Positions 2,471-57,754 of a DNA stretch of 64,000 nt are shown here, in pieces. Position 1 is the stretch's first letter. Each line of letters starts with the position of its first letter. The position numbers were made by a program, and so were the translations under genes. Source of the stretch: an uncultured Gammaproteobacteria bacterium (lineage in GTDB: Bacteria > Patescibacteriota > Microgenomatia > UBA8517); NCBI GenBank assembly GCA_964599625.1, contig CAZRGC010000003.1:97759-161758 (forward strand). Direction: 5' to 3'. Below the pieces are notes generated by a model. That model was not told the DNA's origin. It did not search any database and saw only the letters and a program-made list of their open reading frames with translations.

Positions 2471-4825
2471 ATGAAGAAAATAACAAAATCTTTAGAGCTC
2501 GGAGGAAAAACTCTGACTCTTACCACAGGTGAACTTGCAGAACAGGCAGCGGGTGCAGTTCTCGCTAGAATGGGCGACACAGTCGTATTGGCAACAGTGG
2601 CCGCAGCTCCACTCAAGATGGAAATGGATTATTTTCCACTTACAGTTGAATACCTCGAAAGACTTTATGCCGGTGGACGTATCAAAGGCAGTAAATGGGT
2701 CAAAAAAGAAGGAAGGCCCACAGATGAGGAAATTCTTTCCGCGAGACTTATAGACAGATCCATAAGACCCCTTTTCCCCAAGACCTACAAAAAAGAAGTT
2801 CAGGTGATTGTCACTGTAATGGCTGTGGACATGGAAAATGACCCTGCCATTTTGGGTGCAATCGCGGCTTCGGCAGCTGTTCACGTTTCTACACTTCCCT
2901 GGAAAGGTCCAGTTGCTCCACTTACGGTTGGACTTATAAACGGAGAGTACAAGATTAACCCGTCAAATTCAGAGATGGAAAATTCACTTATGGATCTTAC
3001 AGTTTCTTCGACAAAAGAGGCTGTTCTCATGATCGAGGCAGGAGCCAAAGAAGTAACAGAAGAGCAAATTGTGGGAGGAGTTGAATTTGCACAGAAAGAA
3101 TCTAAAGCGGTTTTGGCTTTTATTGAAGAACTTGCAAAAGAGGCAGGTAGGGACAGAGAAACATATGTTCCCGAAAAACCTTCTGCTGAACTTGAAAAAC
3201 AAGTAGAAAAACTGGTTGGAGACAAAATTGCGGGTGTTGTTGAAAGCTTGGTTAGTGTAGAAAACGGAAGATCTACAGAGCTTCAGGATTTGATTGACGC
3301 AGTTGTTGCAAATGTTACGGAGGAAGATGCTAAATGGGTTCCTGAGATTGTTGACCATATGAAGAAAGATTATATTCGTAGTCAGATTCTCAAAAAAGGA
3401 AAAAGACCAGACGGCAGGAAACTCACGGAAGTCAGAAAACTTTCTGGTGAGGTTGGCTATTTACCCAGAGTTCACGGTTCGGCTTTGTTCAAAAGAGGGC
3501 AGACACATGTCTTGTCTGTAGCTACGCTTGGTGCTCAGTCAATGGGACTCCTTTTGGAATCTGCAGAAGGCGAAGTCGAAAAAAGATATATGCACCAATA
3601 TTCCATGCCTCCTTATGCCAGCGGTGAGGTTGGAAGATTTGGTAACGCAGGAAGACGCGAAATTGGACACGGTGCTCTCGCAGAACGTGCACTTACACCG
3701 GTAATTCCTTCTCAGGATGAGTTCCCTTACACAATAAGAGTGGTATCAGAAGTTATGAGTTCAAATGGTTCGACTTCAATGGCTTCTGTTGTTGGTTCTA
3801 CATTGTCACTCATGGATGCAGGTGTACCCATAAAAGCTCCTGTTGCAGGTATTGCAATGGGTCTCATTATCGAAAACGAAAAAGAATTTGCGGTTCTTTC
3901 GGATATCATGGGCATCGAGGACTTCAACGGTGATATGGATTTCAAAGTGGCAGGCACCGATAACGGAATTACAGCACTTCAGCTTGATGTTAAGACCCTA
4001 AACCTTACCAAAGAAATTCTGGAGAAAGCACTTGAACAGTCCAAGGATGCAAGGTCCCAAGTGATGAAAGCCATCAAGGACACTTTGGCTGAACCCAGAA
4101 CTACAGTCTCGGAATATGCACCCAAGATTAAAGTGGTTAAGATTCCAGTTGAGAAGATTGGGGAATTTATAGGCCCAAGCGGAAAGAATATCAAAAAGCT
4201 TATGGCTGACACAGGGTGTCAGGTGGACGTTGAAGACGATGGAAGTGTTGCTATATCTGGAGTTGACCCGGACAAGATGCAGCAGGCGGTTGCATTTGTA
4301 GAAGGTTTTGCAAAAGTCGTGCAACCTGGAGAAATTTATGAAGGTGAAGTCGTGAGACTTATGTCATTCGGGGCATTTGTAAATATTTTGCCCGGCAAAG
4401 ACGGCATGGTGCATGTTTCAGACATGGGCCAGGAGGGATTTGTTAAAGATGCAGGAGATGTTGTAAGCATTGGACAAAAAGTTCAAGTTAGAGTTAAAGA
4501 AGTTGACGATATGGGAAGAATCAATCTTTCTATGAATATGGATCCTGCAATGGATGAAAAGATCAAAGCTGAAAGACAAGCAAAGTTTGGTGACAGAGGC
4601 GGCAGAGGTGGCGGACGAGGTGGATTTGGCGGAGGTCGCGGCGGATTTGGAGGCGGCAGAGGTGGCGGACGAGGTGGATTTGGCGGAGGTCGCGGCGGAT
4701 TTGGAGGCGGCAGAGGAAGAAGTTTTGACAGAGCCGATAGGGGTGCAAGTGGGGGACCACATTTTCCTGCATCCAGATTAATGGGTGACAATAATTCTTC
4801 GGGTGGCAACGACTTCGGAAGATAA
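2471..4825 (+). CDS. pnp: polynucleotide phosphorylase with C-terminal RGG/Gly-Arg-rich extension
   Basis: Two RNase PH domains (…RPDGRKL…GSALFKRGQT…; …FNGDMDFKVAGT…), a KH domain and an S1 domain are all present. An extra ~90 aa follows: GDRGGRGGGRGGFGGGRGGFGGGRGGGRGGFGGGRGGFGGGRGRSFDRADRG. Confidence 0.95.
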   Translation: MKKITKSLELGGKTLTLTTGELAEQAAGAVLARMGDTVVLATVAAAPLKMEMDYFPLTVEYLERLYAGGRIKGSKWVKKEGRPTDEEILSARLIDRSIRPLFPKTYKKEVQVIVTVMAVDMENDPAILGAIAASAAVHVSTLPWKGPVAPLTVGLINGEYKINPSNSEMENSLMDLTVSSTKEAVLMIEAGAKEVTEEQIVGGVEFAQKESKAVLAFIEELAKEAGRDRETYVPEKPSAELEKQVEKLVGDKIAGVVESLVSVENGRSTELQDLIDAVVANVTEEDAKWVPEIVDHMKKDYIRSQILKKGKRPDGRKLTEVRKLSGEVGYLPRVHGSALFKRGQTHVLSVATLGAQSMGLLLESAEGEVEKRYMHQYSMPPYASGEVGRFGNAGRREIGHGALAERALTPVIPSQDEFPYTIRVVSEVMSSNGSTSMASVVGSTLSLMDAGVPIKAPVAGIAMGLIIENEKEFAVLSDIMGIEDFNGDMDFKVAGTDNGITALQLDVKTLNLTKEILEKALEQSKDARSQVMKAIKDTLAEPRTTVSEYAPKIKVVKIPVEKIGEFIGPSGKNIKKLMADTGCQVDVEDDGSVAISGVDPDKMQQAVAFVEGFAKVVQPGEIYEGEVVRLMSFGAFVNILPGKDGMVHVSDMGQEGFVKDAGDVVSIGQKVQVRVKEVDDMGRINLSMNMDPAMDEKIKAERQAKFGDRGGRGGGRGGFGGGRGGFGGGRGGGRGGFGGGRGGFGGGRGRSFDRADRGASGGPHFPASRLMGDNNSSGGNDFGR
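4598..4714 (+). repeat. perfect 54-nt tandem duplication (2 copies plus 9-nt partial third) inside the pnp 3' coding region
   Basis: Bases 4598-4651 are identical to 4652-4705 (ggcggcagaggtggcggacgaggtggatttggcggaggtcgcggcggatttgga). The unit is in frame and encodes GGRGGGRGGFGGGRGGFG twice. Confidence 0.9.
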
Positions 4826-54215: not shown

Positions 54216-54695
54216 ATGAACAAGAAAGTCTTTGGAAGAAAATTGTCCAGAAGCAGGCCTGCAAGAGAAGCTTTATTTGCCTCAATTGCTCGCGCAATGC
54301 TTCTTAATGGAAAAGTTGAAACAACCAGGGCCAAAGCCAAGGCTACTCTTGGCATGCTTGAAAAAATGGTAACAGTTTCCAAAAAGGGAACAGTTGCAGG
54401 TATGAGGCGTGTTTTGGCAGATCTGGATAATCAAAGAGATGCTCTAAACGCTTTGTATCAGGAGGTTGCACCATCGTTTACAAGGACGTCCGGTTTTATC
54501 AGACTTATCCAACTTCCAAACAGGAAGGGTGACAATGCCCAGATGGTAAGGATGGAATGGACTGATAAAATTGTCAAAAAAGCCGTGCCCGCCGGCAGGC
54601 AGGAAAAAGTTGTTAAAGAACCTAAGAAAAAAGAAGTTAAAAAAGTAGAAAAATCGGCTAAAAAAGTAGCAACAAAGAAAGAAACAAAGAAATAA
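54216..54695 (+). CDS. rplQ: 50S ribosomal protein L17 (Lys-rich C-terminal tail)
   Basis: An L17 core followed by a KKEVKKVEKSAKKVATKKETKK tail. Confidence 0.93.
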   Translation: MNKKVFGRKLSRSRPAREALFASIARAMLLNGKVETTRAKAKATLGMLEKMVTVSKKGTVAGMRRVLADLDNQRDALNALYQEVAPSFTRTSGFIRLIQLPNRKGDNAQMVRMEWTDKIVKKAVPAGRQEKVVKEPKKKEVKKVEKSAKKVATKKETKK

Positions 54696-55567: not shown

Positions 55568-55939
55568 ATGGTAAGTGATCGTATTTTGGCAGAGGCTAAA
55601 AAATATATACCTGAGTGTGACTACATCGTAGATCTTTTTGACCTAATGTTTATTTGGGTTAGCGACAAAGCACTAAAGGAGACAGGTTTTACCAAGGATG
55701 AGATTTTGAGGATGCGAAACCTTGATCTTATAGCCGAAGGAATGTATTCCGAAGTTGACTTGCGCAAGCAACTTATTGAAAGAATTACCAAAAAACAGGG
55801 CGAAAACACTTACATTCTCAAAACCGCCAAGGGTCTTTTGAATGTGCGTTATCAATATCAGGCATTTCAATTTGATGGCGGCTGGTACATAACGGGAAAG
55901 ATTTTGGAAACCTCCCCCGCCCCAAATCCTCAGTCTTAA
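55568..55939 (+). CDS. hypothetical protein
   Basis: 123 aa with no confident family. A PAS-like fold is possible. Confidence 0.35.
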   Translation: MVSDRILAEAKKYIPECDYIVDLFDLMFIWVSDKALKETGFTKDEILRMRNLDLIAEGMYSEVDLRKQLIERITKKQGENTYILKTAKGLLNVRYQYQAFQFDGGWYITGKILETSPAPNPQS

Positions 55940-55954
55940 GTTATAATTTTTACA

Positions 55955-56998
55955 ATGTCAGAACCACTTTATGATCCGACGGTTTTGGAAAAATATGAAG
56001 TGCCGGAAGCTTTCCGTTATTCGTTGGACGAAGAAGAGGTGACCAACGAAGAAATTTCGGCTGTCAGGCGTTTGGTAAGGGAAAATAAAATAGAGCAAAA
56101 AGGAGCATTTGCAGCAGGTATTAAATACGCGAGGCAAGAGATAATAGCGCTGGAGAATGATCTGGGTCTGGTTCAGAAAGATGAAAGGTCGATGCAAGTA
56201 GCTGTCTTACCCGACGCAGTATTTGAAAAGGCATACTTTGATCTTACCCGTCAAGAAGCCGGAGACAGTGGTGGCGGTTATGCAAACGCACTGGGAAGTG
56301 TTGTATTAAGAGCAAGTACCGACCCTGCATATATAAAATCTTCAATGGTTTACCACGAGTTTGTACATAAGTTTATAGATAAGCATATACAGGTTTTTTC
56401 CAAGGTAAGACGCCCAAGTGGCAGAATTGCCCATGATTATGTAGATAGAAGATCGGGTCTATCGGTGGAAAATGTAACCAAAGAAAGCTCGGCAAAAGGG
56501 ACAAAACCCCGCGGCGAACTTTTGAATGAGCTGGGAAACTACATGGAACAGCATAGGTTTATTTTAAATATATTGGATAAGCCCGAATTTGCTGAAGAAA
56601 AACAGAGGCGCGAGAAACTTCTCAGATCGATGGGTTTTGGAGAATCGGGAGGGTTTTGGATAGCAAATGTCAAAAAGCAGGATGGGAGTACATTGCAGAT
56701 AAACCTTGATAGAGACAGTATTCATATTGACGAAAACGGGGATTTTAATCCCGCAACCCTGTTTTTTTATATGCAACTTGCAACGGATTTGGGAAAGGCA
56801 TGTGACCCACAAAACGATGGGGCGGCTTTCAGGAAGCTTCTTTTGGATTGTAAAGTTGATCCCTCAAAACAAAACGAACTCAGAAAGATGGTGGATATGG
56901 GAATGGGAGAGGGTTTTTACACCAGATTAAAGTCGGCGGGTTACCAATCGGACGATGAACTTTTAGACCTCATTGTAGAGGTGCAATCCAAACTATAG
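55955..56998 (+). CDS. hypothetical protein with HExxH motif (putative zinc metallopeptidase)
   Basis: MVYHEFVHKF is the only recognisable motif. The size is 347 aa. Confidence 0.35.
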   Translation: MSEPLYDPTVLEKYEVPEAFRYSLDEEEVTNEEISAVRRLVRENKIEQKGAFAAGIKYARQEIIALENDLGLVQKDERSMQVAVLPDAVFEKAYFDLTRQEAGDSGGGYANALGSVVLRASTDPAYIKSSMVYHEFVHKFIDKHIQVFSKVRRPSGRIAHDYVDRRSGLSVENVTKESSAKGTKPRGELLNELGNYMEQHRFILNILDKPEFAEEKQRREKLLRSMGFGESGGFWIANVKKQDGSTLQINLDRDSIHIDENGDFNPATLFFYMQLATDLGKACDPQNDGAAFRKLLLDCKVDPSKQNELRKMVDMGMGEGFYTRLKSAGYQSDDELLDLIVEVQSKL

Positions 56999-57180
56999 TG
57001 AAACCTATTGTGTGGTAAAATAGGCTCCTACGGGGTGTAGTTTTAGCCAGCAGGCGAAATACACACTTTAGTCTTAGTTACAAACGGGGTGTAGTTTACC
57101 CGGTAAGCTTCGATGGGTCCCTTCCCATCTCAGGTGCTTTGCACCAAGCTTGGCCAGTAATCTCCACCCCTCGCATAGCT

Positions 57181-57253
57181 CGGGGTGTAGTTTACCGGTA
57201 GAATGGGCGCATGGGGTGCGTCCGGACTGAGTTCAATTCTCAGCACCCCGACC
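57181..57253 (+). tRNA. tRNA-Pro (anticodon GGG)
   Basis: A hand-folded cloverleaf. The acceptor is cggggtg/caccccg. The D-arm is gttt-accggta-gaat (A14, G18G19, A21). The anticodon arm is ggcgc-atGGGgt-gcgtc (U33). The variable loop is 4 nt. The T-arm is ctgag-TTCAATT-ctcag. The discriminator is A, followed by CC. Confidence 0.8.
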
Positions 57254-57754
57254 GAATGGTGGGTTTAGTTTATAAAGGTCGGCAAGGGTTTTTTTGACGC
57301 TTTCAAAACCGATATTTTTAAGATTTGGAATATCTTTGATATCCACCCAAACCAGTTCTGATACGTCGTCACTTGCTTCTATCTCTCCACCCGTAATCTC
57401 CACAATAAACTGAAATACTAATATTGGTTTGTCCGCATCACCATATGTGTCGGGATAATTCCCGAGAAGTCTGATTACTTTAACATCAAGCCCTGTTTCT
57501 TCTTTTGTTTCCCGAATAGCAGCCTCTTCAGCTGACTCTCCCGGGTTTATAAATCCTCCAATCACATCATATGTTCCTTTGAATGGTTCGTTTTTTCTTA
57601 TTGCCAGAAGTACTTTATTGTTTTTTATGGGAATTGCTGAGGCGCCGGGTACAGGGTCTTGGTAAATACTAAACCCGCAGTCCAAACAAATGATTTTGGT
57701 TTCTTTGAGGTCCAGTTTCCGACTTCCGCAAACAGGGCAAAATATATATTTCAT
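57233..57754 (-). CDS. NUDIX hydrolase with N-terminal zinc ribbon (NudC-like)
   Basis: The zinc ribbon is CPVCG…CLDCG and the Nudix box is GGFINPGESAEEAAIRETKEETGLDV. The start is taken at MKYIF (57754), where ATGA overlaps the upstream gene's stop. The longer ORF running to 57874 is rejected. Confidence 0.75.
   Translation of the reverse strand: MKYIFCPVCGSRKLDLKETKIICLDCGFSIYQDPVPGASAIPIKNNKVLLAIRKNEPFKGTYDVIGGFINPGESAEEAAIRETKEETGLDVKVIRLLGNYPDTYGDADKPILVFQFIVEITGGEIEASDDVSELVWVDIKDIPNLKNIGFESVKKTLADLYKLNPPFGRGAEN

What the first reader, a model, noticed from the sequence alone, without database searches (positions are those of the whole stretch)
57001..57253. tRNA-Pro(GGG) preceded by two decayed copies of its own 5' half, under a TGTGGTAAAATA extended -10
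The 14-16 nt 5' end of the tRNA (cggggtgtagttta(c)c) recurs at 57031 and 57085 upstream of the intact gene (57181). Copy 2 even ends with a near-acceptor complement (ccacccct), but it has no T-arm. An extended -10 (TGTGGTAAAATA, 57011-57022) sits just before copy 1. The whole ~220-nt unit is therefore probably one transcript. Possible origins are repeated partial duplications, footprints of site-specific recombination at the tRNA, or a structured 5' leader. The convergent NUDIX gene overlaps the tRNA 3' end by 21 nt.
Basis: seen in the sequence. Interest (0 to 1): 0.5.

Follow-up and report, generated by a model that had tools for sequence, protein, structure and literature searches.

The report
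Hairpin insertion modules upstream of tRNA-Pro
The two "decayed copies" in front of this tRNA-Pro gene are conserved hairpin modules, each starting with the tRNA's own first 13-21 bases, and they belong to a recurrent and apparently undescribed pattern in ultra-small (Patescibacteria) bacteria in which selfish DNA, including small GIY-YIG nuclease genes marked by a 20-base palindrome, inserts into the 5' part of tRNA genes while leaving an intact tRNA behind.

Summary
tRNA-Pro(GGG) lies at 57181-57251, and its first 13-16 nt recur at 57031 and 57085 (3 hits against 0.25 expected).

The "decay" reading is wrong for copy 2. Copy 2 (57085-57180) is a long hairpin: the tRNA 5' segment pairs with an inverted copy of itself and is capped by two small hairpins. 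Four divergent Microgenomates lineages keep it at 76-89% identity with two compensatory pairs, although synonymous sites are saturated and recA DNA is only 73-77% identical.

Copy 1's first 31 nt are also conserved. A near-identical strain (1 mismatch in 1937 nt) carries a third, 61-nt module bounded by perfect 20-nt repeats.

Of 38 distinct tRNA-Pro(GGG) loci, 7 have such modules. They always sit between the TGnTAAAAT promoter and the intact tRNA.

In relatives, the same position holds 76-91-aa GIY-YIG genes preceded by the palindrome CCTGCCTGCCGGCAGGCAGG. This occurs in tRNA-Pro, Asn, Lys and Arg genes. In two loci it holds an HNH-type homing endonuclease instead.

Best reading: these are co-transcribed, insertion-derived leader modules. 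They are relics or non-coding members of a family of selfish elements that invade tRNA 5' ends. Copy 2 is under constraint. No known RNA family matches.

The parts
57011..57022 (+). Extended -10 promoter-like box TGTGGTAAAATA (TGnTAAAAT at 57013-57021), 9 nt before the first repeat copy
   Evidence: Read in the sequence. TGnTAWAAT lies at the same distance (7-14 nt) from tRNA +1 in loci without modules, and from the first copy in 7 of 9 module-bearing loci. It is never directly before the intact tRNA there. Function as a promoter is inferred.
57031..57084 (+). Module U1. It contains tRNA positions 1-13 (57031-57043), a mini-hairpin GCCAGCAGGC (57046-57055), AAAT closing a D-stem-like pairing, a decayed inverted copy AAATACACAC (57057-57066) and an AT-rich tail.
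   Evidence: repeat. The same 30-nt start, CGGGGTGTAGTTTTAGCCAG(C/T)AGGCGAAA, is found in L012 and L018. Positions 57029-57059 are 96.8% identical to L012, whose recA DNA is 72% identical. The fold is weak in the window (z=-0.8) and stronger in L018 (z=-2.8). The centre matches the palindrome PAL at 9 of 11 positions. My rough estimate is p about 0.04-0.1, so this is not established.
57085..57180 (+). Module U2. It contains tRNA 5' segment copy A (57085-57108), hairpin 1 GATGGG/CCCATC (57112-57129), hairpin 2 GGTGC/GCACC (57133-57145), inverted copy A' (57146-57170) and the tail TCGCATAGCT (57171-57180).
   Evidence: MFE is -40.9 kcal/mol, z=-5.9, with 0 of 200 shuffles as good. Four homologues (window, L008, L058, L068/L069) give the same rod plus three-way junction at -36 to -45 kcal/mol. 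98.7% of cells are paired and there are 2 compensatory pairs. Identity without the A segment is 76-89%, against four-fold-site identity of 0.21-0.36. There is no Rfam hit.
57181..57251 (+). Intact tRNA-Pro(GGG). ARAGORN extends it to 57253. CCA is not encoded.
   Evidence: Identical or near-identical tRNAs occur in 40 distinct Microgenomates loci.
57261..57272 (+). Possible fourth, downstream partial copy GGGTTTAGTTTA (11 of 12), 10 nt after the tRNA and inside the tail of the NUDIX ORF
   Evidence: It is the only <=2-mismatch hit among 41 downstream regions. My estimate of the chance expectation is about 0.14, so significance is borderline.
57233..57754 (-). Convergent zinc-ribbon NUDIX hydrolase gene. 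Its ORF tail runs antisense over the tRNA 3' end.
   Evidence: It is not part of the element and is given for context.
54582..54602 (+). In-frame insertion of 21 nt resembling PAL (GCCGTGCCCGCCGGCAGGCAG) in the C-terminal tail of rplQ (L17). It is absent from 99.2%-identical strains.
   Evidence: 18 of 20 match to PAL, 0 expected; a clean 21-nt gap in L002. It links this genome to the palindrome that marks the GIY-YIG tRNA cassettes.

Best explanation
The 150 nt between the promoter and tRNA-Pro(GGG) hold two insertion-derived leader modules. Each module begins with a copy of the tRNA's first 13-21 nt (segment A). It folds back on an imperfect inverted copy of A (segment A') and ends in a short AT-rich tail. 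The 5' third of this highly conserved tRNA gene is a recurrent entry point for selfish DNA in Microgenomates. Every insertion leaves the old 5' segment attached to the native promoter and supplies a new one, so an intact tRNA gene is regenerated downstream. Full-size versions in relatives still carry cargo: a 76-91-aa GIY-YIG nuclease gene preceded by a 20-nt palindrome, or an HNH-type homing endonuclease. The window's modules carry no ORF. They are either relics of such insertions or non-coding members of the same family. Modules are gained, lost and shuffled by recombination between the 16-20-nt direct repeats, probably stimulated by nuclease breaks in the tRNA gene. The whole array is transcribed from the single TGnTAAAAT promoter, and RNase P releases the tRNA. 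U2, and the start of U1, are kept by selection. The most likely reason is that pairing A with A' locks away the orphan acceptor strand, and A' itself, so that neither competes with the real tRNA during folding. Shown here: the repeats, the hairpins, their conservation, recurrence across lineages, strain polymorphism, cargo-bearing homologous arrangements, and promoter position. Inferred: the insertion mechanism, co-transcription, RNase P release, and the reason for the constraint.
For: The repeats are non-random. The U2 rod has z=-5.9. Four lineages share the same fold with two compensatory pairs. U2 is 76-89% identical where four-fold sites are saturated and recA DNA is 73-77% identical. An empty and a filled site are seen in close relatives: L016 has the promoter abutting the tRNA, while L008 has the same promoter, then U2, then the tRNA (they share 80-86% nt identity in flanking genes). 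L001 differs from the window by 1 mismatch in 1937 nt plus a 61-nt module bounded by perfect 20-nt repeats. Of 38 independently sampled tRNA-Pro(GGG) loci, 7 carry upstream partial copies. GIY-YIG homologues at 54-80% identity always sit at tRNA genes. Five tRNA-gene sites (L010/L031, L067, L068/L069, L070, L071) plus L076 show promoter, then a partial tRNA from +1, then PAL, then the rest of the 5' half, then the ORF, then the intact tRNA. These involve tRNA-Pro, Asn, Lys and Arg. L068/L069 carry U2 and a GIY cassette in tandem. L013/L027/L032 have the native tRNA-Pro split after position 24-27 by an ORF with a homing-endonuclease repeat. PAL is polymorphic in this very lineage. Across 481 kb of loci, PAL occurs only in GIY cassettes and at that one site. 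The promoter box lies only before the first copy. As a precedent, the GIY-YIG enzyme SegB cuts inside tRNA genes and drives recombination-dependent tandem amplification (PMC13096335).
Against: The window holds no nuclease gene and no clear PAL in U1 or U2 (the 9-of-11 match is marginal), so the link from the hairpin modules to the ORF cassettes rests on shared position, shared architecture and co-occurrence in L068. Strong conservation of U1 and U2 is not what a relic predicts. It fits a host function or recent horizontal spread better. An intact downstream tRNA keeps any nuclease target that lies within the tRNA, so classical homing immunity is unexplained. An 80-aa GIY-YIG protein has no DNA-binding domain and its activity is unknown. 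In the window and L008, nearest-neighbour folding of the whole precursor favours pairing of A' with the real tRNA 5' strand by 4.6-6 kcal/mol over the modular fold. U2 could therefore hinder tRNA folding rather than protect it. Only four U2 sequences exist, and the covariation is modest (31 of 500 shuffles reach it). No transcript data are available.
Confidence: 0.55

Rival explanations
1. U1 and U2 form a host-serving structured 5' leader, whatever its origin. They act as a cis-regulatory or processing element for tRNA-Pro(GGG). A' can pair either with the upstream decoy A (tRNA free to fold) or with the tRNA's own 5' strand (tRNA trapped). This would gate maturation in the manner of an attenuator.
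For: U2 and the start of U1 are conserved more strongly than recA DNA. There are compensatory pairs. Alternative pairings are energetically close: the misfold is favoured by 4.6-6 kcal/mol in the window and L008, while the modular fold is the MFE in L058. The modules sit between the promoter and the tRNA.
Against: Only 7 of 38 lineages have any module, and close relatives do without them (L016 versus L008). Module content differs between lineages (U1+U2, U1+U1b, U2 alone). The array is unstable at strain level. No ligand or sensor is evident, and no Rfam family matches.
Confidence: 0.22
2. This is the first reader's view: repeated local partial tandem duplications of the tRNA 5' half, followed by neutral decay.
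For: There are direct repeats of the 5' end. Repeat-mediated gain or loss of a unit occurs between strains.
Against: The sequence after each A copy is not a copy of what precedes the tRNA. Units contain inverted copies, not just direct ones. U2 and U1 are conserved across saturated divergence. The same units appear in distant lineages.
Confidence: 0.08
3. These are footprints of tyrosine- or serine-recombinase integration (att sites) of phages or islands at the tRNA gene, with the island later deleted.
For: tRNA genes are classical integration targets (general knowledge). A tyrosine integrase lies beside the tRNA-Asn cassette in L070.
Against: The repeated part is the 5' end of the tRNA, not the 3' end. 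No recombinase domain is found in the two ORFs on each side in the window. The units are 54-96 nt. No viral contig holds the tRNA 5' 20-mer or the U2 core. The cargo seen in relatives is nucleases, not integrases.
Confidence: 0.05

Closest known systems
Free-standing GIY-YIG homing endonuclease SegB of phages T4/T6 in the tRNA gene cluster (PMC2330249; PMC13096335)
   Same: A GIY-YIG nuclease gene is embedded among tRNA genes. It cuts inside tRNA genes. Its breaks drive recombination-dependent tandem segmental duplication that is unstable and collapses again. segB homologues are statistically linked to tRNA genes.
   Different: SegB is about 220 aa with a DNA-binding part and is phage-borne. 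It amplifies whole tRNA genes. Here the ORFs are 76-91 aa, chromosomal in Patescibacteria, and duplicate only the 5' half from +1. They are marked by a fixed 20-nt palindrome. The window itself has no ORF.
Mobile endonuclease ORFs that enter the end of a gene and bring a replacement gene terminus, such as the Allomyces mitochondrial atp6 insertion (recalled from memory, not checked here)
   Same: The insertion duplicates the terminal part of the host gene, so an intact gene survives next to a dead fragment. The ORF can read into or out of host-gene sequence.
   Different: Those cases involve protein genes in mitochondria and duplicate the 3' end. Here the host is a tRNA gene, the 5' end is duplicated, and the dead fragment keeps the promoter.
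Partial tRNA copies at the borders of integrated phages and islands (attL/attR of tyrosine integrases; general knowledge)
   Same: Direct repeats of part of a tRNA gene flank inserted DNA. Arrays can form by successive insertions and decay.
   Different: Those repeats are the 3' part of the tRNA, the inserts are kilobases long, and a recombinase is present. None of these three features holds here.
Group I introns in tRNA genes of Patescibacteria (PMC13011429)
   Same: The phylum is the same. Selfish insertions interrupt tRNA genes, and some carry homing endonucleases.
   Different: Introns sit in the anticodon loop and are spliced out of a single split gene. Here there is no ribozyme (no Rfam hit) and a complete tRNA lies downstream. 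That paper does not mention GIY-YIG, duplication or palindromes.
Yeast mitochondrial GC clusters (recalled from memory), as a comparator for the palindrome PAL
   Same: Both are short GC-rich palindromes that are optional between strains. Both can sit in frame inside a protein gene and travel with free-standing endonuclease ORFs.
   Different: The organism and the sequence differ. The link of PAL to the D-arm region of partial tRNA copies is specific to these cassettes.
Attenuator-type leaders with three mutually exclusive pairing segments (for example the trp leader; general knowledge)
   Same: A (U2), A' (U2) and A (tRNA) can form 1:2 or 2:3 pairings of similar strength.
   Different: There is no leader peptide, no terminator U-tract after U2, and no known signal. 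The output would be tRNA folding, not termination.

Membership tests
Canonical tRNA (for 57181-57251) | Cloverleaf scoring above the Rfam RF00005 gathering score, with a 7-nt anticodon loop containing U33 and a TTCRANN T-loop | tested here: met
   47.6 bits against a gathering score of 29. ARAGORN calls Pro(GGG). The loop is AUGGGGU and the T-loop is TTCAATT (read).
tRNA or tRNA pseudogene (for copy 2, 57085-57180) | T-arm and cloverleaf detectable by covariance model or ARAGORN | tested here: not met
   There is no tRNA hit at E<=10 in 56900-57350 other than the real tRNA, and ARAGORN finds none. All four homologues fold as a rod in which the 5' segment pairs with its inverted copy.
Integrase att-site footprint at a tRNA gene | The repeated segment is the 3' part of the tRNA | tested here: not met
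   The repeats are tRNA positions 1-13 and 1-21.
Integrase att-site footprint at a tRNA gene | A tyrosine or serine recombinase gene within or beside the insert | tested here: not met
   The four flanking ORFs have no recombinase domain in Pfam. The inserts are 54-96 nt.
GIY-YIG/PAL tRNA cassette (defined here from L010, L067, L068, L070, L071, L076) | A partial tRNA copy starting at +1 takes the promoter-proximal place, with an intact tRNA downstream | tested here: met
GIY-YIG/PAL tRNA cassette | The palindrome CCTGCCTGCCGGCAGGCAGG lies inside the partial copy | tested here: inconclusive
   U1 has GCCAGCAGGCG (9 of 11 against PAL), and L001-U3 has TGCCGGCA, which could equally derive from the tRNA's own TACCGGTA. 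No hit with <=3 mismatches occurs at the locus.
GIY-YIG/PAL tRNA cassette | A GIY-YIG ORF between the partial copy and the intact tRNA | tested here: not met
   tblastn with the GIY-YIG ORF and with the 308-aa endonuclease finds nothing in the window. There is no ORF in 57031-57180.
Homing endonuclease gene (for the relatives' ORFs) | Nuclease catalytic domain | tested here: met
   Pfam GIY-YIG scores 9e-17 to 1e-17. HNH_repeat scores 3.9e-10 for the 308-aa ORF in L013.
Homing endonuclease gene (for the relatives' ORFs) | Site-specific cleavage of the allele that lacks the gene, followed by copying into it | not testable with these tools
   Only presence/absence patterns (L016 versus L008; different tRNA hosts) are available.
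Group I intron in a tRNA gene | A ribozyme core between two halves of one tRNA | tested here: not met
   There are no intron hits in Rfam, and a complete tRNA follows the insert.
Miniature inverted-repeat element (MITE) | Terminal inverted repeats and many dispersed copies | tested here: not met
   The inverted arms A/A' are present, but the A motif occurs only at this locus in 64 kb and U2 occurs only upstream of tRNA-Pro across 481 kb of loci.
Intrinsic terminator or attenuator | A GC-rich hairpin followed directly by a U-tract | tested here: not met
   The U2 tail is UCGCAUAGCU. The scan hits at 57024 and 57169 are 5-bp stems within the repeats. Only L001-U3 has a U-run, and it starts about 9 nt after the stem.

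The most novel reading that the evidence does not exclude
U1 and U2 are domesticated descendants of a previously undescribed and very widespread class of tRNA-gene-invading GIY-YIG/palindrome cassettes. They now act as a three-segment RNA switch: the decoy 5' strand, its antisense, and the real tRNA 5' strand. The switch decides whether the precursor folds into a processable tRNA-Pro(GGG).
Probability: 0.12. Interest if true: 0.8.

Novelty: new variant of a known kind. Interest (0 to 1): 0.62.

Why it matters
tRNA genes are the classic landing sites for mobile DNA, but nearly all known cases use the 3' end and a recombinase, or use a self-splicing intron. Here the 5' end is used. The tRNA is kept intact by duplicating its first 13-40 nt, and the promoter is handed to the insert.

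The nuclease-bearing form appears very common in metagenomes. There are 5157 clusters at 50% identity with E<=0.001. The palindrome is even translated into gene-caller artefacts such as "LPAGRQA" in 23 of the 150 best representatives. I found no description of it in the held literature.

For annotation, the pattern explains orphan tRNA 5' fragments, ORF calls that run into tRNA genes, and odd N-terminal extensions. For biology, it offers a conserved non-coding hairpin whose only evident partner is the tRNA it precedes. It also offers a testable case of how an essential small RNA gene tolerates repeated invasion.

Tried and rejected
- **Rfam.** The whole-window gathering scan returned 0 hits and even missed the tRNA. 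Permissive scans of the locus and of relatives found only the tRNA. I therefore found no tmRNA, intron, ribozyme or known sRNA. A hammerhead-like GAUGAG in the 80-nt insert of L014/L058 did not score.
- **Neighbour protein.** A protein-based search for relatives of the upstream 347-aa ORF in species genomes found nothing. Only three homologues exist in the big protein set, and the 48% and 43% relatives lack the tRNA at that place or run off the contig.
- **Viral contigs.** These hold neither the tRNA 5' 20-mer nor the U2 core. A phage attP origin is therefore unsupported.
- **Copy 2 as an odd tRNA.** I considered a long variable arm, an 8-nt anticodon loop and a degenerate T-arm, then rejected the idea. 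The rod pairing is the one that shows compensation (T.T in the window versus T-A in L008/L058), and the putative T-stem always has a central mismatch.
- **Tails as inverted promoter copies.** I considered whether the module tails are inverted copies of the promoter and leader. The matches are too short to be significant, so I dropped this.
- **PAL remnants.** A PAL remnant in U1 is marginal. The one in L001-U3 is confounded by the tRNA's own palindromic D-loop TACCGGTA.
- **Reverse tRNA-like sequence in L013/L032.** ARAGORN at lowered thresholds does not call it.
- **Literature.** Searches for the palindrome, for small GIY-YIG proteins at tRNA genes, and for YhbQ/COG2827 found nothing relevant.

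Full report
**1. What is in the window**

ARAGORN finds one tRNA in 64 kb, tRNA-Pro(GGG) at 57181-57253. Rfam's tRNA model gives 47.6 bits for 57181-57251 in a local scan. The whole-window gathering scan returned nothing at all. I treat that as a filter miss.

The motif CGGGGTGTAGTTTA occurs at 57031 (1 mismatch), 57085 and 57181. That is 3 hits against 0.25 expected, and no shuffle out of 100 reached 3 (one search gives the repeat families). The neighbours are rpoA, L17, L13 and S9, then two unknown ORFs, the tRNA, a convergent NUDIX gene, two more unknown ORFs, and RecA and RecX. This is a bacterial chromosome. DNA matches place it in Patescibacteria/Microgenomates, the Woese-/Levybacteria group.

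**2. Anatomy of the two upstream units**

Unit U2 (57085-57180) folds at -40.9 kcal/mol, with z=-5.9. Its 5' strand is the tRNA 5' segment (A). Its 3' strand (A', 57146-57170) is an imperfect reverse complement of A. The tip is a three-way junction with two perfect small hairpins, and a 10-nt tail follows. It is not a cloverleaf: it has no T-arm and gives no tRNA score.

Unit U1 (57031-57084) holds tRNA positions 1-13, a GCC-AGCA-GGC mini-hairpin closed by a D-stem-like GUUU/AAAU pairing, a decayed A' and an AT-rich tail. Its fold alone is weak.

**3. The units recur and are polymorphic**

A Logan contig (L001) has 1 mismatch in 1937 nt against the window. It carries a third, 61-nt unit (U3) between U2 and the tRNA, bounded by perfect 20-nt repeats. 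U3 is a 17-bp hairpin of A with an imperfect A'. Three other contigs at 99.2% identity match the window's arrangement.

Scanning species genomes and metagenomes for the tRNA's first 20 nt gave 60 loci, which reduce to 40 distinct tRNA-Pro(GGG) loci with enough upstream sequence. Of the 38 that came from these unbiased scans, 7 have one or more upstream partial copies:
- U1-type units occur in L012 and L018.
- U2-type units occur in L008 and L058.
- Other insert types occur in L014/L050/L057 and L010/L031.

L016 and L008 are close relatives, 80-86% identical in flanking genes. In L016 the promoter abuts the tRNA. In L008 the same promoter is followed by U2 and then the tRNA. This is an empty site next to a filled one.

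A TGnTAWAAT box lies within 45 nt upstream of the first copy in 7 of 9 module-bearing loci. It never lies directly before the intact tRNA. The intact tRNA is therefore most likely made by read-through, but that is inferred.

**4. U2 and the start of U1 are conserved, not decaying**

U2 has four homologues: the window, L008, L058 and L068/L069. All fold to the same rod plus junction, at -36 to -45 kcal/mol. In the 19 pairs that can be scored on the automatic alignment, 98.7% of cells pair. Two pairs change on both sides: U-A to C-G in hairpin 1, and G-C to A-U in hairpin 2. With only four sequences, 31 of 500 shuffles do as well. The loops vary freely.

Between the window and L068/L069, four-fold synonymous sites are 21-36% identical, which is saturated, and S9 and L13 are 57-59% identical as proteins. 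U2 without its A segment is nevertheless 78% identical. recA DNA is 73-77% identical between the window and L008, L058, L068, L012 or L018. U2 is 80-88% identical, and U1's first 31 nt are 97% identical to L012. Either selection or recent transfer is needed to explain this. Neutral decay is excluded.

**5. What occupies the same place in relatives**

In L010/L031 the order is promoter, tRNA 1-22, the perfect palindrome CCTGCCTGCCGGCAGGCAGG (PAL), tRNA 23-31, a spacer, an 81-aa ORF and the intact tRNA. The ORF's stop codon is the TAG at tRNA positions 8-10. The ORF is a GIY-YIG nuclease domain (Pfam 9e-17).

Its homologues at 54-80% identity were looked up blind, and every one sits at a tRNA gene:

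| Locus | tRNA | Arrangement |
|---|---|---|
| L067 | Pro | Same arrangement as L010 |
| L068/L069 | Pro | U2, then copy 1-29, PAL, 30-37, ORF, tRNA |
| L070 | Asn | The last 13 codons are tRNA sequence |
| L071 | Lys | One PAL nested inside another |
| L076 | Arg | Copy 1-22, PAL, 23-42, ORF, tRNA |
| L072 | Cys | ORF after the tRNA, with a different palindrome |

In 481 kb of fetched DNA, PAL occurs only in these cassettes and at one site in the window.

The family is large: 5157 representatives at 50% identity with E<=0.001, mostly 76-130 aa. Of the best 150, 23 carry a translated PAL (LPAGRQA, PACRQAG or CLPAGR) in an ORF extension. Many ORF tails and heads are translated tRNA halves.

Separately, in Levybacteria (L013/L027 and L032) the native tRNA-Pro is split after position 24-27. 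The insert there holds a reverse-oriented 308-aa ORF with a homing-endonuclease-associated repeat (Pfam 3.9e-10). It also holds a reverse-oriented, divergent tRNA-Pro(GGG)-like sequence with an abnormal T-loop. The decayed 3' part of the native tRNA follows. In L032 the ORF has been deleted.

**6. Link to this genome**

The window has no GIY-YIG or HNH-repeat gene. It does have a 21-nt PAL-like insertion (18 of 20 match) in frame in the tail of rplQ at 54582-54602. That insertion is missing from the 99.2%-identical strains. The palindrome is therefore active, or was recently active, in this lineage. U1's centre resembles the right half of PAL (9 of 11). This is marginal by my own rough estimate, and I do not rely on it.

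**7. Interpretation**

The 5' third of this conserved tRNA gene is a recurrent insertion point. Every insertion leaves the old 5' segment on the promoter side and regenerates an intact tRNA downstream. Repeats of A then allow units to be lost, gained or exchanged.

Nuclease-made breaks followed by homologous repair are the most economical mechanism. The experimentally studied GIY-YIG enzyme SegB cuts within tRNA genes and causes recombination-dependent, unstable tandem amplification (PMC13096335).

I cannot say how the cassette acquires the 5' half of a new tRNA host, why PAL sits at positions 20-29 of the dead copy, or how the intact tRNA escapes cutting.

The hairpin modules in the window carry no ORF. 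They share position, architecture and, in L068, physical company with the cassettes, which is why I read them as relics or non-coding members of that family.

Their conservation calls for a reason. The simplest is that an orphan acceptor strand in the same transcript as the tRNA is harmful unless locked into a local hairpin. However, nearest-neighbour folding of the full precursor favours pairing of A' with the real tRNA 5' strand in the window and L008 by 4.6-6 kcal/mol, though not in L058. A gating role, or even a cost, therefore cannot be excluded.

**8. Comparison and novelty**

No Rfam family matches. Integrase footprints fail on three defining features. Group I introns of Patescibacteria tRNAs are a different thing (PMC13011429). 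I found no paper on small GIY-YIG genes with a fixed palindrome inside duplicated tRNA 5' halves. The held library is incomplete, so absence there is not proof of novelty.

I file the window's feature as a new variant of a known kind: selfish-element scars and cargo at tRNA genes. It includes a new conserved hairpin motif (U2).

Confidence is 0.55 for the insertion-derived, co-transcribed module reading and 0.22 for a primarily host-serving leader. The remainder covers simple duplication with decay, integrase footprints and other readings.

Noticed in passing
window 54582-54602 (rplQ / L17 tail): A 21-nt in-frame insertion, GCCGTGCCCGCCGGCAGGCAG (18 of 20 match to the cassette palindrome), adds AVPAGRQ to L17. 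It is absent from L002-L004, which are 99.2% identical overall.
   Followed up: partly
window 57261-57272: GGGTTTAGTTTA (11 of 12 against tRNA positions 3-14) lies 10 nt after the tRNA, inside the antisense NUDIX ORF tail. It may be a fourth partial copy. Significance is borderline.
   Followed up: partly
L013/L027 (about 2590-3547) and L032 (231-470): In these Levybacteria loci the native tRNA-Pro(GGG) is split after position 24-27 by a reverse-oriented 308-aa zinc-finger-rich ORF with Pfam HNH_repeat. The insert also carries a reverse-oriented tRNA-Pro(GGG)-like sequence with T-loop GGCGGAA, which neither ARAGORN nor Rfam calls. The ORF is deleted in L032.
   Followed up: partly
L014 3133-3214, L050, L057, and L058 (reverse complement 668-745): A shared insert of about 80 nt (TTGCGACTYRCGAATC...GATGAG...ATATGAAAT..ATTTCATAT) sits inside the D-loop of the upstream dead tRNA copy in distant lineages. 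There is no Rfam match.
   Followed up: partly
L071 1440-1480: One PAL copy is inserted into another: CCTGCCTGCCG[CCTGCCTGTCGGTAGGCAGG]GCAGGCAGG. This suggests that the palindrome inserts at its own centre.
   Followed up: no
P0012-P0161: Gene callers often extend the small GIY-YIG ORFs through PAL and through tRNA halves. This gives artefactual peptides such as MVELADLPAGRQAR at the N-terminus or ...SSAGRASGC at the C-terminus. P0013 is a tandem duplicate of a whole cassette.
   Followed up: partly
L070 1343-2464: A tyrosine integrase gene lies just downstream of the tRNA-Asn that also carries a GIY-YIG/PAL cassette at its 5' side. Two kinds of mobile DNA therefore use the two ends of one tRNA gene.
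   Followed up: no
window 55568-56998: The two ORFs upstream of the tRNA (123 aa and 347 aa) have no Pfam domain. The 347-aa protein has only three homologues in 5.8 billion clusters.
   Followed up: partly
window, whole: The Rfam gathering-threshold scan of the full 64 kb reported no match, although the tRNA scores 47.6 bits in a local scan. Negative whole-window scans should not be trusted for short RNAs.
   Followed up: yes
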